From assembly GCF_003334405.1 (NCBI RefSeq), contig NZ_QOWM01000003.1: a stretch of DNA of 64,000 nucleotides, one strand, 5' to 3'. Numbering within the stretch: position 1 is the stretch's first letter; every line of letters begins with the position of its first letter. This DNA comes from Escherichia coli. Its GTDB lineage: Bacteria > Pseudomonadota > Gammaproteobacteria > Enterobacterales > Enterobacteriaceae. Under the pieces are notes generated by a model. That model ran no database searches. It saw nothing but the letters and a program-made list of their open reading frames with translations, and had not been told where the DNA came from. This document shows, piece by piece, positions 28,643-37,344 of the stretch. The translations under genes and the position numbers were made by a program.

Positions 28643-28845
28643 TGAACTCGTCTCCTTAATTTATTACTGAAAGGGCCGCTGTTTTGGTCAAAAAACTCTC
28701 TAACTATAGACCACCAGCCAGATCCCGCTTCGGAGACTATTCTGGAAACGGTGTTATGAAATACACGCAAAGCGGGACGTACAGGGGCTAAATCGGCTAA
28801 ACTACAGTTTTTCTGATTTTTAATATGCGTTTAGTGAAGCCAGTA

Positions 28846-29088
28846 ATGAAGAAACCGCTCCGCCAGCAAAACCGCCAGATTATTAGCTATGTCCCACGCA
28901 CGGAACCCGCGCCGCCAGAACATGCGATAAAGATGGATTCGTTTCGTGATGTCTGGATGCTGCGTGGCAAATATGTTGCGTTTGTACTGATGGGAGAGTC
29001 ATTACTGCGCTCACCGGCGTTTACTGTGCCTGAATCTGCCCAACGTTGGGCAAATCAGATCCGCCAGGAAGGGGAAGTGACTGAGTAA
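28846..29088 (+). CDS. cedA: cell division modulator CedA
   Basis: 80 aa from ATG 28846 (MKKPLRQQNRQ); the 87 aa ORF-track version from ATG 28825 is an alternative start. Confidence 0.8.
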   Translation: MKKPLRQQNRQIISYVPRTEPAPPEHAIKMDSFRDVWMLRGKYVAFVLMGESLLRSPAFTVPESAQRWANQIRQEGEVTE

Positions 29089-29376
29089 GGATTACATACC
29101 TCCCGGTTTTGCCGGGAGTTACATGACCTGAAATTCTGTATTTCGTTGCTACATTCATTCAAACCACCTGTAACAAAAAGCTGCCTTTGACGATCTATTG
29201 CTATAAATAAGTGATCTTTTTTCTTTAATTGTTTATTTATTTTAAAATGGTTAAGTTTTGCTAATCATGATGAGCTATTTTTGATAGTTCATCCTGTGGC
29301 GTCGCTCTTAAACTTATATTGTAAATGACTTAGATTTAAATGAGATAATAATTTTGTTAACAATATGAGGCGGGAG

Positions 29377-30180
29377 ATGTTTTCTACAAACTTAATACAG
29401 AGTAATTATGGTGATTTAAATATTAAAAGCCTGGCTTTCGACTCTTTTAAAGAAAGGCTGCAGTCTACTATGACAGCACTCACTTTCTTTATATCAACGG
29501 GTCAATGTGACTGCGATGAAATAGCAGAATCAAACTTTAATTATATGATTGCCTATATGTCTAACATTAACTATGATGCCTCAAAGCCAGGAGCGCCAGC
29601 ACTTAGTTTTGATACATATCTGCAGGACAATGTTAAATATAGAGTAATAATTAATAATCTTTATGGTAGTGAAATTCGGATAAGAGGTATAAATAAAGAT
29701 TTTATTGGAATGGATGTCACTTCTGTATTTCGCCCAGAAAAAATGACCAATTTGATCAGTATAAAAAACAGGTTGGTTATTCACTATTTAAGGACTATAT
29801 ACTATGAACAAAATTATATACATCCTGTCGGGAGCATTTTTGCTGCGATTCAAAAAAATGAGAGTCTCCTAAAGTTTCCTTCGATAATATCAATGCTTAA
29901 TATCAATCTTCTTTTTAATCCACTAAATCTTCCGGGAATGGGAAGTGGTGTGCTTGAAGATATTATGAGTATTCCAGATAGTTCACTTAGAAAACGTCTC
30001 GGGTATGAGGTTTTAAGCTTCTCGCTACAGGCACATTCATTGAGCCAGGAATGTATTGATAAGTTGGACATTTTTTTCGCTGACGATCTGTTTAAATATG
30101 AGTCAGTATGCATCGCCGCGATGGAACATTTAAAAAGTAAGGCAACGGCCCCTATACAAAACGGACCGTTGCCAGCATAA
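29377..30180 (+). CDS. ydjO: uncharacterised protein, AT-rich gene
   Basis: 267 aa from ATG 29377 (GAGG-type RBS upstream); visibly AT-rich coding and upstream region; recognised as YdjO. Confidence 0.75.
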   Translation: MFSTNLIQSNYGDLNIKSLAFDSFKERLQSTMTALTFFISTGQCDCDEIAESNFNYMIAYMSNINYDASKPGAPALSFDTYLQDNVKYRVIINNLYGSEIRIRGINKDFIGMDVTSVFRPEKMTNLISIKNRLVIHYLRTIYYEQNYIHPVGSIFAAIQKNESLLKFPSIISMLNINLLFNPLNLPGMGSGVLEDIMSIPDSSLRKRLGYEVLSFSLQAHSLSQECIDKLDIFFADDLFKYESVCIAAMEHLKSKATAPIQNGPLPA

Positions 30181-30183
30181 GAA

Positions 30184-31575
30184 TTAATGGTGTGCCAGTT
30201 CGGCGTCGTCTTCGCTATCCAGAATGGCTTTATCGGTTTGCTTCAGCCACTGGCTGGTCAGCGTGCCAGCTGTCATCGAGCCACTAACGTTTAACGCCGT
30301 ACGGCCCATGTCGATAAGCGGTTCAACGGAGATTAACAGCGCCACCAGGGTTACTGGCAGGCCCATCGCAGGCAGTACAATCAGTGCGGCGAAAGTTGCA
30401 CCACCACCGACACCGGCAACGCCTGCGGAACTAACGGTAACAATACCGACCAGCGTCGCAATCCACATCGGGTCCAGCGGGTTAATGCCAACCGTAGGCG
30501 CAACCATCACCGCCAGCATTGCCGGATACAAACCGGCGCAGCCGTTCTGACCAATGGTTGCACCGAAAGAGGCGGCGAAACTGGCGATGGATTCAGGAAC
30601 GCCCAGACGACGCGTTTGTGCTTCCACATTCAGTGGGATAGACGCAGCACTGGAACGGCTGGTAAAGGCAAACGTCAGCACAGGCCATACCTTACGGAAG
30701 TACTTCAGCGGACTCACGCCATTAATGCCCAGCAGAATGCCATGCACTGCAAACATAATCAGCAGACCGAGGTAGGACGCGACAACGAAACTTCCCAGTT
30801 TGATGATGTCTTGCAAGTTAGAACCTGCAACCACTTTGGTCATTAGAGCCAGAACGCCGTAAGGGGTCAACTGCATGACCAGGCGAACCAGTTTCATCAC
30901 CCAGCTTTGTAGGGTATCGATAGCGGCTAAGACGCGTTCACCTTTCGGCGCATCATCCTTCAGCAGTTTCAATGCAGCTACGCCGAGGAATGCGGCAAAA
31001 ATTACCACGCTGATAATTGACGTCGGATTGGCTCCGGTAAGATCGGCAAACGGGTTTTTCGGGATAAAGGACAAGACCAGCTGCGGAACGCTCAGATCAG
31101 AGACTTTACCAACATAGTTACTTTCAATGGCGTTCAGACGTGCAGTTTCTGCACCACCCTGAACCAGACCTTCAGCCGTCAAACCAAACAGGTTGGTGAC
31201 CAGCACACCGACCAGCGCCGCAATCAGCGTGGTAAACAAAAGCGTACCGATGGTCAGAAAACTGATTTTGCCTAACTGAGATGCGTTATGCAGACGGGCA
31301 ACCGCGCTCAGAATAGAGGCGAAGACTAACGGCATAACGATCATTTGCAGCAGTTGAACATAGCCGTTACCAACGATGTTAAACCACTGTACAGAATCTT
31401 TAAGTACCTGGCTGTCAGAACCATAAATGGTATGCAGGGCAAGGCCAAAAACCACACCCATCACCAGACCCACCAGCACTTTTTTCGCCAGACTCCACTG
31501 TTTATGGCGGGTCTGAGCCAGCGCAAACAGCAGTACAACGAACACCACGATGTTCGCAATTAATGGAAAGTTCAT
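30184..31575 (-). CDS. tcyP: L-cystine transporter (dicarboxylate/amino acid:cation symporter family)
   Basis: 463 aa polytopic membrane protein (formerly ydjN). Confidence 0.9.
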
Positions 31576-36425: not shown

Positions 36426-37184
36426 ATGAAGCTTTTGAAGACAGTTCCTGCCATCGTTATGTTGGCGGGGGGCATGTTTGCGTCACTGAATGCAGCTGCC
36501 GATGATTCCGTTTTTACTGTCATGGATGATCCTGCCAGCGCTAAAAAACCTTTCGAAGGTAATCTGAACGCAGGATATCTTGCACAATCAGGCAATACGA
36601 AAAGCTCCTCACTTACGGCTGACACCACCATGACCTGGTATGGACACACCACTGCCTGGTCGCTGTGGGGGAACGCCAGTAATACTTCTTCTAATGATGA
36701 GCGTTCTTCAGAAAAATATGCGGCGGGCGGGCGTAGCCGTTTTAATTTAACTGATTATGACTATTTATTTGGTCAGGCAAGCTGGCTGACAGACCGTTAT
36801 AACGGCTATCGAGAGCGCGATGTGTTGACCGCGGGTTATGGGCGTCAGTTTTTGAATGGCCCGGTACACAGTTTCCGCTTTGAATTCGGTCCAGGTGTGC
36901 GTTACGACAAATATACCGACAATGCCAGTGAAACCCAGCCGCTGGGCTATGCCTCCGGGGCTTATGCATGGCAGTTGACTGACAACGCTAAATTTACGCA
37001 GGGTGTTTCGGTCTTTGGCGCGGAAGACACAACGCTGAACTCCGAAAGCGCATTAAATGTTGCTATTAATGAACATTTTGGACTGAAGGTGGCTTACAAC
37101 GTCACATGGAACTCTGAACCTCCAGAGTCTGCACCGGAACATACCGACCGTCGGACAACCTTATCGCTGGGCTACAGCATGTAA
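36426..37184 (+). CDS. ydiY: putative outer membrane beta-barrel protein
   Basis: 252 aa with signal peptide and C-terminal aromatic residue pattern (LGYSM). Confidence 0.85.
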   Translation: MKLLKTVPAIVMLAGGMFASLNAAADDSVFTVMDDPASAKKPFEGNLNAGYLAQSGNTKSSSLTADTTMTWYGHTTAWSLWGNASNTSSNDERSSEKYAAGGRSRFNLTDYDYLFGQASWLTDRYNGYRERDVLTAGYGRQFLNGPVHSFRFEFGPGVRYDKYTDNASETQPLGYASGAYAWQLTDNAKFTQGVSVFGAEDTTLNSESALNVAINEHFGLKVAYNVTWNSEPPESAPEHTDRRTTLSLGYSM

Positions 37185-37236
37185 AATTATCTGCCGGACC
37201 GTGTTATGCGGTCTGGCTGTCTTCGTTTGTCACTGC

Positions 37237-37344
37237 TCAGCCCCAAATCATTGCTGCCCAACGTAGCAACAACATAGCGCCACAGATTGCCAGTAGCACC
37301 ACCACCATCTTCCAGTGTTTTTTATCAAAGCGTTTAGTCGGCAT
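37237..37344 (-). CDS. yniD: small single-TM membrane protein, 35 aa
   Basis: MPTKRFDKKHWKMVVVLLAICGAMLLLRWAAMIWG from ATG complement 37342..37344 with AGGA upstream; ORF track shows a 72 aa in-frame extension from a GTG. Confidence 0.75.
   Translation of the reverse strand: MPTKRFDKKHWKMVVVLLAICGAMLLLRWAAMIWG

What the first reader, a model, noticed from the sequence alone, without database searches (positions are those of the whole stretch)
29100..30180. AT-rich ydjO and its upstream region look like a silenced, horizontally acquired gene
From about 29100 to 30180 the sequence is conspicuously AT-rich (long runs of A/T, TTTAAA and ATAAAT motifs) compared with flanking katE/cedA and tcyP. 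The ydjO product is Asn/Ile/Lys/Ser-rich with no recognisable catalytic motif, typical of H-NS-silenced acquired genes.
Basis: inference. Interest (0 to 1): 0.3.

Follow-up and report, generated by a model that had tools for sequence, protein, structure and literature searches.

The report
AT-rich foreign ydjO island in E. coli
This is the known E. coli orphan gene ydjO: a 1.1-kb AT-rich piece of foreign DNA wedged between two conserved genes, bound by the silencing protein H-NS, barely expressed, and missing or broken in many strains. It is real but ordinary.

Summary
Window 29100-30180 has 34.4% GC against 50.1% for the window. That is the lowest 1081-bp stretch in 64 kb (z = -3.5).

The window is almost identical to E. 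coli K-12 MG1655, and the ORF is ydjO (b1730).

**Foreign origin is supported.**
- About 75 other Enterobacteriaceae species keep katE-cedA-tcyP-ydjM. In most, cedA and tcyP are only 52-150 bp apart, and where read that spacer is one bidirectional terminator.
- The same empty site survives in 1124 of 5426 complete E. coli genomes.
- 4257 genomes carry the roughly 1.1-kb insert.
- E. albertii has a very divergent copy (33-40% identity) at the same junction.
- No relative turned up outside Escherichia, on plasmids or in phages, so the donor is unknown.

**Silencing is supported mainly by published work.**
- The ydjO/cedA spacer is a listed H-NS-bound "promoter island".
- RNA polymerase and H-NS both bind it in genomic SELEX.
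- ydjO rises only 2.6-fold in a Δhns strain, from very low counts.

**Additions from this study.**
- dN/dS of about 0.2 shows that ydjO encodes, or encoded, a real protein.
- Four of eight sampled carriers have it inactivated by homopolymer frameshifts or a nonsense codon. IS1 insertions were seen in two other genomes.

The core interpretation is already in the literature. Interest is low.

The parts
28825..29088 (+). cedA (87 codons), the left flank. Its last codons (about 29071-29088, ...QEGEVTE*) carry a derived sequence found only in ydjO-bearing alleles and in E. albertii. Empty-site alleles and other genera read ...QENEVEE* or similar.
   Evidence: ORF list; RefSeq annotation; junction comparison; E. 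albertii
29089..30183 (.). The inserted AT-rich island, about 1.1 kb. It replaces the roughly 50-bp ancestral cedA/tcyP bidirectional-terminator spacer. The left edge may lie about 18 bp earlier, inside the cedA 3' end.
   Evidence: Composition; empty site in 1124 E. coli genomes and in other Escherichia and Enterobacteriaceae
29100..29118 (+). GC-rich hairpin CTCCCGG-TTTTG-CCGGGAG just after the cedA stop. It is a candidate cedA terminator but has no good T-run.
   Evidence: RNA fold -17.9 kcal/mol, z = -3.0
29161..29480 (.). Published "promoter island" 1811053_320 (ydjO/cedA), mapped onto the window. It is the AT-richest stretch (GC 0.25-0.30), is reported as H-NS-bound, and overlaps an RpoS-holoenzyme SELEX peak at about 29483.
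   Evidence: PMC3661553 Table 1; PMC5493296; coordinate map. The map assumes the 1976-bp offset between U00096.2 and U00096.3, which is from my own knowledge.
29325..29352 (+). Sigma-70 promoter ATGACT-16-AATAAT for ydjO. It is the RpoD-holoenzyme genomic-SELEX "constitutive promoter", in a spacer that also holds an H-NS SELEX site.
   Evidence: Consensus scan; PMC3946193 Table 2
29377..30180 (+). ydjO CDS (b1730, 267 aa). A GAGG Shine-Dalgarno sequence lies at 29367-29370. An in-frame ATG at 29365 would give 271 aa. The product is soluble (no transmembrane segment) and is an orphan.
   Evidence: homology searches; dN/dS
29852..29858 (+). A7 homopolymer inside ydjO. A8 alleles give ...IQKK* and A6 alleles give ...IQKMRVS*, each splitting the gene.
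30071..30077 (+). T7 homopolymer inside ydjO. Loss of one T frameshifts the gene in strain 134 (L089).
29188..29199 (+). Left copy of the direct repeat TGACGATCT(A/G)TT. The right copy is at 30081-30092. Recombination between the two copies removed the gene in Escherichia sp. MOD1-EC7003 (L002).
30129..30173 (-). Intrinsic terminator of tcyP, embedded in the last codons of ydjO. The stem is 30141-30173 and is followed on the minus strand by TTACTTTTTAAA.
   Evidence: RNA fold -22.4 kcal/mol, z = -4.4; inverted repeat I10
30184..31575 (-). tcyP (ydjN), the right flank. It converges on ydjO, and only 3 bp separate the two stop codons.

Best explanation
**What it is.** The stretch is a roughly 1.1-kb AT-rich island of foreign origin. 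It was inserted into, and replaced, the short bidirectional-terminator spacer between the convergent core genes cedA and tcyP, in an ancestor within the genus Escherichia. It carries one orphan protein gene, ydjO, its sigma-70 promoter, and a new tcyP terminator.

**How it works.** Because the DNA is about 66% AT, it is coated by the nucleoid protein H-NS. This is xenogeneic silencing. H-NS filaments nucleate on the AT-rich spacer and 5' end of ydjO (the "promoter island"). They occlude or trap RNA polymerase at the ydjO promoter and at promoter-like sites inside the island, which keeps transcription very low.

**What has happened since.** The gene did encode a protein under purifying selection, but it is dispensable. 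It is absent from about a fifth of complete E. coli genomes, which keep the ancestral empty site. In many carriers it is inactivated by homopolymer frameshifts, a nonsense codon, IS1 insertion or deletion.

**Shown versus inferred.**
- Shown here: the composition, the insertion relative to the ancestral synteny, orphan status, selection and decay.
- Taken from published experiments: H-NS and RNA polymerase binding, and the Δhns effect.
- Inferred: the occlusion mechanism at this particular promoter, and the single-acquisition history.
For: **Composition.** GC is 0.344 against 0.501, and GC3 is 0.32 against 0.52-0.57.

**Ancestral state.**
- Of the 80 CedA-anchored loci from other species, 75 carry both cedA and tcyP, and 74 of those lack any YdjO similarity. 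Most have a cedA-tcyP gap of 52-150 bp.
- Where read, that gap is an A-run/hairpin/T-run terminator.
- The same terminator spacer is the empty site in 1124 of 5426 complete E. coli genomes, including O25:H4 strains, and in E. whittamii and other Escherichia lineages.
- 4257 of 5426 genomes carry the island.

**Shared junction.** ydjO-bearing E. coli and E. albertii share the derived cedA 3' end and a homologous AT-rich (32% GC) downstream region. The E. albertii ORF is 33-40% identical.

**Orphan status.**
- Only E. coli proteins of 74% identity or more were found among 5.8 billion clusters.
- Nothing genuine beyond E. coli was found among 1.84 billion representatives.
- There are no Pfam, NCBIfam, PADLOC or PDB hits, and nothing significant in PHROGs.
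- There are no phage, plasmid or viral-contig relatives.

**A real coding gene.** dN/dS is 0.13-0.43 across seven alleles. The ORF length is kept at 267 codons even at dS = 0.44-0.80.

**Decay.**
- Four of eight sampled carriers are annotated as pseudogenes.
- IS1 insertions were seen in two other genomes.
- A repeat-mediated deletion removed the gene in one lineage.

**H-NS, from the literature.**
- The spacer is a promoter island, bound by H-NS in the Kahramanoglou and Oshima data sets and called foreign by two predictors (PMC3661553).
- It holds an RpoD SELEX promoter, ATGACT-16-AATAAT, plus an H-NS SELEX site (PMC3946193). I located that promoter at 29325-29352.
- ydjO is up 2.6-fold in Δhns at logCPM 1.8 (PMC8894471).
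Against: - Derepression in Δhns is small (2.6-fold). The same study did not class ydjO as horizontally acquired.
- Table 1 of PMC3661553 lists H-NS binding here from two of the three data sets and not from Grainger et al..
- The island is marked by neither of the two genomic-island predictors, IslandViewer and GIST.
- My strict sigma-70 consensus scan found no more promoter-like sites than in composition-matched shuffles (5 against 4.6).
- No donor, mobility gene, tRNA or target-site duplication was found, so the route of acquisition is unknown.
- The patchy distribution within Escherichia cannot be explained by one insertion plus simple deletions. A deletion cannot restore the ancestral terminator, so homologous recombination of alleles or an old polymorphism must be invoked.
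Confidence: 0.8

Rival explanations
1. ydjO is not a functional gene in present-day E. coli. It is a decaying remnant, and the island now matters only as non-coding AT-rich DNA: an H-NS nucleation site or promoter island, a trap for insertion sequences, and the carrier of the tcyP terminator.
For: - Four of eight sampled ydjO-bearing genomes are annotated as frameshifted or with an internal stop. At least three independent lesions are involved: loss of a T in the T7 tract, R119 to TGA, and gain of an A in the A7 tract on two different allele backgrounds.
- Large clusters of truncated products exist (P0011, 2273 member sequences).
- IS1 insertions are present in H1 and H16.
- The whole gene was deleted in L002.
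- The gene is absent from 20.7% of complete genomes.
- Expression is very low even in Δhns.
Against: - dN/dS is consistently 0.13-0.43, well below 1, between alleles with dS up to 0.5.
- The full 267-codon frame is preserved in the 76%-identity allele (P0006), and a 257-aa ORF exists in E. albertii.
- K-12 and four of the eight sampled genomes keep an intact frame.
Confidence: 0.3
2. The region is native DNA and was not acquired. On this view an old Enterobacteriaceae gene became AT-rich through mutational bias under low expression, and was lost everywhere except Escherichia.
For: No donor or mobility signature was found. The Ozoline group proposes local AT enrichment after transfer (PMC7054387 abstract).
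Against: - 74 loci from other species, across many genera, carry both cedA and tcyP and none has any trace of YdjO. Most have only a 52-150-bp terminator spacer between the two genes. This would require dozens of clean, identical losses.
- GC3 of 0.32 and the amino-acid skew affect the whole ORF.
- The derived cedA 3' end is linked to presence of the island.
Confidence: 0.03
3. ydjO is a phase-variable contingency gene. Slippage in the A7 tract (29852-29858) and the T7 tract (30071-30077) would switch the protein on and off reversibly.
For: A6, A7 and A8 variants of the same tract all occur. A8 appears on two different allele backgrounds (L087 and L095). A T7-to-T6 variant also occurs.
Against: - Tracts of 7 nt are short for efficient slippage.
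- Such tracts are expected by chance in 66% AT DNA (A5/T5 tracts run at 15.7 per kb).
- Frameshift alleles co-occur with nonsense mutations (L095), which looks like irreversible decay.
- No within-strain heterogeneity was examined.
Confidence: 0.05

Closest known systems
H-NS xenogeneic silencing of AT-rich acquired genes in E. coli and Salmonella (for example bgl, the yahL region, LEE and SPI islands)
   Same: - AT content is about 15 points above the genome average.
- H-NS binding has been reported by ChIP and by SELEX.
- Basal expression is very low.
- Taxonomic distribution is restricted.
- The island was inserted into conserved synteny.
   Different: - The island is very small (1.1 kb, one gene).
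- It carries no mobility genes.
- Derepression in Δhns is weak (2.6-fold, against about 21-fold for yahL in the same data set).
"Promoter islands" of E. coli K-12 (Ozoline laboratory; 78 loci, PMC3661553)
   Same: The ydjO/cedA spacer is itself on the published list as 1811053_320. It is marked as associated with predicted foreign genes and as H-NS-bound.
   Different: It is one of the shortest islands on the list (320 bp). It lies outside the IslandViewer and GIST islands. My strict -35/-10 consensus scan does not show an excess over composition-matched shuffles. The published definition uses a different scoring tool.
Taxonomically restricted (orphan) genes used as E. coli/Shigella markers: YahL, YdjO, YjfZ (PMC11057252)
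   Same: YdjO has no detectable relatives outside Escherichia. It is already used as an E. coli-specific qPCR target.
   Different: - It is not universal in E. coli: 20.7% of complete genomes have the empty site.
- E. albertii has a distant homologue.
- The three marker proteins are not related to one another by BLASTP.

Membership tests
H-NS-silenced xenogeneic DNA | AT content clearly above the host genome average | tested here: met
   GC 0.344 against 0.501, z = -3.5, the lowest stretch in the window
H-NS-silenced xenogeneic DNA | Acquired: absent from related taxa, and interrupting conserved synteny | tested here: met
   74 other species carry cedA and tcyP with no YdjO similarity, most of them 52-150 bp apart. 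The ancestral empty site is also kept in 1124 E. coli genomes.
H-NS-silenced xenogeneic DNA | H-NS occupancy in vivo or in vitro | not testable with these tools
   Literature only. ChIP data (Kahramanoglou, Oshima) are summarised in PMC3661553 Table 1. There is a genomic-SELEX H-NS site in the spacer (PMC3946193). The site is not listed from the Grainger data set.
H-NS-silenced xenogeneic DNA | Derepression when hns is deleted | not testable with these tools
   Literature only: logFC 1.38, P = 0.0034, logCPM 1.77 in Δhns (PMC8894471 Supplementary Data 2). The effect is modest. No Δhns ΔstpA data were found; the one supplement searched had been cut when stored.
Promoter island | Unusually dense promoter-like sites with RNA polymerase binding but little productive transcription | tested here: inconclusive
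   The locus is listed as island 1811053_320, and RpoD and RpoS holoenzyme SELEX peaks fall there. My strict consensus scan gave 5 sites against 4.6 expected from shuffles.
Classical genomic island or mobile element | Integrase or transposase, tRNA target, flanking direct repeats or terminal inverted repeats | tested here: not met
   The island holds a single ORF with no mobility gene. There are no junction repeats and no phage, plasmid or viral relatives.
YjfZ (DUF2686) or YahL families | Detectable sequence similarity | tested here: not met
   BLASTP E = 0.22 and 2.1. No Pfam hit even at E <= 10.
Phase-variable contingency locus | Reversible length changes in a simple repeat that switch the reading frame | tested here: inconclusive
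   A6, A7 and A8 variants and T6/T7 variants exist between strains. Reversibility and within-strain heterogeneity were not tested.

The most novel reading that the evidence does not exclude
YdjO could be a genuinely new, Escherichia-restricted protein fold: an N-terminal helix / five-strand sheet / helix domain followed by a helical bundle, with no structural relative. It evolves very fast. The E. coli and E. albertii copies are 33-40% identical next to a 90%-identical CedA, and deep allelic lineages inside E. coli reach dS = 0.8. Yet it stays under purifying selection and is repeatedly lost. That pattern is typical of conflict or niche genes, such as phage defence, toxin-like proteins or host-interaction factors, rather than of inert cargo.
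Probability: 0.12. Interest if true: 0.45.

Novelty: already known. Interest (0 to 1): 0.15.

Why it matters
The finding matters little beyond housekeeping. It is a clean, small textbook example of xenogeneic silencing, because the ancestral empty site is still segregating in the species.

Two practical points follow.
- ydjO is promoted as a universal E. coli/Shigella qPCR marker (PMC11057252). About a fifth of complete E. coli genomes, including O25:H4 strains, lack it. The qPCR primers lie inside the island, so that assay should miss those lineages.
- The locus would serve as a compact natural system for studying how a silenced orphan gene is kept in some lineages and lost in others.

Tried and rejected
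1. **Distant homologue P0034** (299 aa, 26% identity, E = 1.5e-36). Rejected as an artefact. Its contig L084 is E. coli cedA-ydjO-tcyP DNA with essentially every A and G interchanged: 588 A>G and 450 G>A against 11 other differences.
2. **Paralogy of YdjO with YahL and YjfZ**, the other "E. coli-specific" proteins of similar length. No BLASTP similarity.
3. **Phage or plasmid origin.** tblastn against the phage collection found nothing. The three "plasmid" hits are 4.8-4.9-Mb records, which are mislabelled chromosomes. The viral-contig scan found nothing. PHROGs and PADLOC were negative.
4. **Function from structure.** The AlphaFold2 model is mediocre (pLDDT 65, pTM 0.56, five-sequence alignment).
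   - Foldseek against AFDB50 found only E. coli/Shigella YdjO proteins, an E. albertii protein, and weak hits to E. coli YhiS fragments.
   - No fold assignment was made.
5. **Non-coding RNA.** Rfam returned nothing credible; the best match was a nematode snoRNA model at E = 0.096.
6. **Getting the full E. albertii gene.** The contig ends inside it (L004). A protein search with the fragment returned only one 79-aa fragment.
7. **Expression data for Δhns ΔstpA.** The supplement of PMC4288151 was cut when stored and held no ydjO entry. The supplements of PMC3923964 and PMC11335895 gave nothing.
8. **Junction repeats or a target-site duplication.** None were found. Only internal chance-level repeats turned up, and one of them mediated the L002 deletion.

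Full report
**Observation.** The window around the finding is almost identical to E. coli K-12 MG1655, with 4 mismatches in 5001 bases. The ORFs are chbF, chbG, katE (-), cedA (+, 28825-29088), ydjO (+, 29377-30180; an upstream in-frame ATG lies at 29365), tcyP (-, 30184-31575), ydjM and hxpB.

The stretch 29100-30180 has 34.4% GC against 50.1% for the window. It is the most AT-rich 1081-bp stretch in the 64 kb (z = -3.5). GC drops to 25% in 100-bp steps and recovers sharply at both ends. Third-position GC of ydjO is 0.32, against 0.52-0.57 in its neighbours.

TTTAAA, ATAAAT and A/T tracts are over-represented. The protein is enriched in Asn, Ile, Ser and Tyr, but only marginally in Lys.

**Is it foreign?** I anchored on CedA and fetched 80 loci from one-genome-per-species collections. 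Seventy-five of them carry both cedA and tcyP. Across Salmonella, Citrobacter, Enterobacter, Klebsiella, Raoultella, Kluyvera, Kosakonia, Leclercia, Pluralibacter, Atlantibacter and others, the order katE-cedA-tcyP-ydjM is conserved. In most species cedA and tcyP are only 52-150 bp apart, and none has any YdjO similarity.

Where I read it, that spacer is a classic bidirectional intrinsic terminator: an A-run, a GC hairpin and a T-run. The same architecture, almost base for base, is found in several Escherichia groups:
- E. whittamii;
- three other divergent Escherichia lineages (L005-L007);
- 1124 of 5426 complete E. coli genomes, including O25:H4 strains. From my own knowledge O25:H4 is ST131, phylogroup B2.

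By contrast, 4257 of 5426 genomes carry the full island. The empty site is therefore ancestral, and the 1.1-kb AT-rich segment replaced it.

The replacement extends into the last codons of cedA. Island-bearing alleles end ...QEGEVTE*, whereas empty alleles and other genera end ...QENEVEE* or similar.

The island supplies two new hairpins.
- One lies after cedA at 29100-29118.
- The other is a strong tcyP terminator embedded in the last codons of ydjO. Its stem is 30141-30173, followed by a T-run on the minus strand.

No integrase, transposase, tRNA or junction repeat is present.

**Relatives.** YdjO has no Pfam, NCBIfam, PADLOC or PDB-sequence match, and only an insignificant PHROGs match at E = 0.37.
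- A search of 5.8 billion protein clusters found only E. coli proteins of 74% identity or more.
- An exhaustive phmmer scan of 1.84 billion representatives found only fragments of the same protein plus one apparent 26%-identity relative, P0034. That relative is an artefact. Its contig is E. coli DNA with A and G swapped throughout (588 A>G, 450 G>A).
- Phage, plasmid and viral-contig searches were negative.

The only genuine distant relative is in E. albertii. Directly after cedA, which there has the same derived ...QEGEVAE* end, lies a 32%-GC region with alignable upstream DNA. It holds an ORF that is 39-40% identical over the 111-119 residues available before the contig ends. The AlphaFold database holds a 257-aa E. 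albertii protein at 33% identity.

So the island predates, or has been exchanged across, the E. coli/E. albertii split. It evolves far faster than its flanks, where CedA is 90% identical.

A deletion cannot recreate the ancestral terminator. The patchy distribution inside Escherichia therefore implies either a long-lived presence/absence polymorphism or allele replacement by homologous recombination through the conserved flanks. This is inference.

**Is it a gene?** Seven alleles were compared pairwise.
- dN/dS is 0.13-0.43.
- Against a deeply divergent E. coli allele (P0006, 76% identity, same locus), dS is 0.44, and 0.80 in the N-terminal half. dN/dS is 0.27, and the frame is kept at exactly 267 codons.
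- Neighbouring genes in the same genome pair have dS of 0.05-0.21 and dN/dS of 0.01-0.10.

That is the signature of a translated protein under relaxed purifying selection, with unusually old allelic lineages.

**Decay.** Eight island-bearing genomes were taken at even steps down the identity ranking. Four have ydjO annotated as a pseudogene. This sample is small and is not random.

The lesions are independent:
- loss of one T in a T7 tract (30071-30077);
- a nonsense codon at residue 119, shared by three genomes;
- gain of one A in the A7 tract (29852-29858), seen on two different allele backgrounds.

Other evidence points the same way.
- Truncated products ending exactly at the A7 tract form large clusters: A8 gives IQKK* and A6 gives IQKMRVS*.
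- IS1 elements interrupt the gene in two of the twenty genomes listed.
- In-frame internal deletions occur (P0005, P0010).
- In Escherichia sp. MOD1-EC7003 the gene was excised between the direct repeats TGACGATCT(A/G)TT at 29188-29199 and 30081-30092.

**Silencing.** I could not measure this, so the evidence is from the literature.
- PMC3661553 Table 1 lists the ydjO/cedA spacer as one of 78 "promoter islands" (1811053_320, which maps to window 29161-29480). It is associated with genes predicted foreign by Nakamura et al. and by Lawrence and Ochman. It is bound by H-NS in the Kahramanoglou and Oshima data sets.
- PMC3946193 Table 2 reports an RpoD-holoenzyme genomic-SELEX site with promoter ATGACT-16-AATAAT for ydjO, and an H-NS SELEX site in the same spacer. 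I located that promoter at 29325-29352. It sits upstream of the GAGG Shine-Dalgarno sequence and the annotated ATG at 29377.
- PMC5493296 reports an RpoS-holoenzyme peak just inside the 5' end of ydjO.
- In PMC8894471 Supplementary Data 2, ydjO is 2.6-fold higher in Δhns (logFC 1.38, P = 0.0034) at a very low count level (logCPM 1.77). In the same table yahL has logFC 4.39.

Binding is therefore well supported. The measured silencing effect in a single hns mutant is modest, and StpA compensation is a possible reason (inference).

In an ExPEC strain, ydjO and the convergent tcyP (ydjN) fall together in serum. With only 3 bp between the two stop codons, that may reflect transcription across both genes rather than ydjO regulation (inference).

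**Verdict.** This study adds five points.
- The exact ancestral empty site and the insertion boundaries.
- The presence/absence polymorphism: 78.5% of genomes carry the island and 20.7% have the empty site.
- The divergent E. albertii homologue.
- Evidence that ydjO is a real but dispensable coding gene, now decaying in many lineages.
- Exposure of one database artefact that would otherwise pass as a distant homologue.

The best-supported mechanism is ordinary xenogeneic silencing of a small AT-rich orphan-gene island. Novelty is rated "already known", and interest is low.

Noticed in passing
L084 (Logan SRR33321306 contig 56313), protein P0034: A public assembly contig is E. coli cedA-ydjO-tcyP DNA with A and G interchanged at essentially every position (588 A>G, 450 G>A, 11 other differences). 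Its translated "protein" scores E = 1.5e-36 against YdjO and looks like a 26%-identity homologue. It is a base-calling or channel-swap artefact in the protein databases.
   Followed up: yes
window 29852-29858 (A7) and 30071-30077 (T7): Homopolymer tracts inside ydjO are recurrent frameshift sites between strains. A6, A7 and A8 variants and T6/T7 variants occur, and A8 arose on two allele backgrounds. Whether this is phase variation or simple decay is untested.
   Followed up: partly
E. coli genome hits H1 (NZ_CP184155.1) and H16 (NZ_CM166342.1), inside ydjO: IS1 elements are inserted in ydjO in two of the twenty genomes listed. This fits the published idea that H-NS-bound AT-rich DNA captures transposons (PMC11335895 abstract), but no statistics were done.
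   Followed up: no
window 29377-30180 versus PMC11057252: ydjO is published as an E. coli/Shigella-wide qPCR marker, but 1124 of 5426 complete genomes (20.7%), including O25:H4 strains, have the empty cedA-tcyP site. The published qPCR primers lie inside the island, so the assay should miss these lineages.
   Followed up: partly
L033 (Enterobacter wuhouensis), L075 (Siccibacter colletis), L078 (Kosakonia sacchari): the cedA-tcyP spacer: Three other species have unrelated insertions of 0.9-1.9 kb (GC 0.46-0.55) at the same cedA/tcyP terminator spacer. The site may be a recurrent landing place. The contents were not examined.
   Followed up: no
L082 4001-4804 (GCA_025283635.1), protein P0006: This is a mosaic ydjO allele. 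The N-terminal half is very divergent from K-12 (dS 0.80) and the C-terminal half is close (dS 0.16), in otherwise typical E. coli flanks. That points to intragenic recombination with an unsampled deep lineage.
   Followed up: partly
window 37516-39415 (-): The second AT-rich stretch of the window (GC 0.39) coincides with the arpB pseudogene of K-12 (b4494). 1081-bp windows starting at 36951-39181 fall to 0.37 GC.
   Followed up: partly
fold search, ranks 10 and 49: The YdjO model gives weak structural matches to E. coli YhiS fragments (probability 0.99-1.00, TM 0.32-0.51, 10% identity). YhiS is another AT-rich orphan next to a published promoter island. With a pLDDT-65 model this is only a lead.
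   Followed up: no
L004 (E. albertii NBRC 107761), 6 kb upstream of cedA: No katE match was found upstream of cedA in the E. albertii type strain, unlike nearly all other species examined. The contig also ends inside the ydjO-like gene.
   Followed up: no
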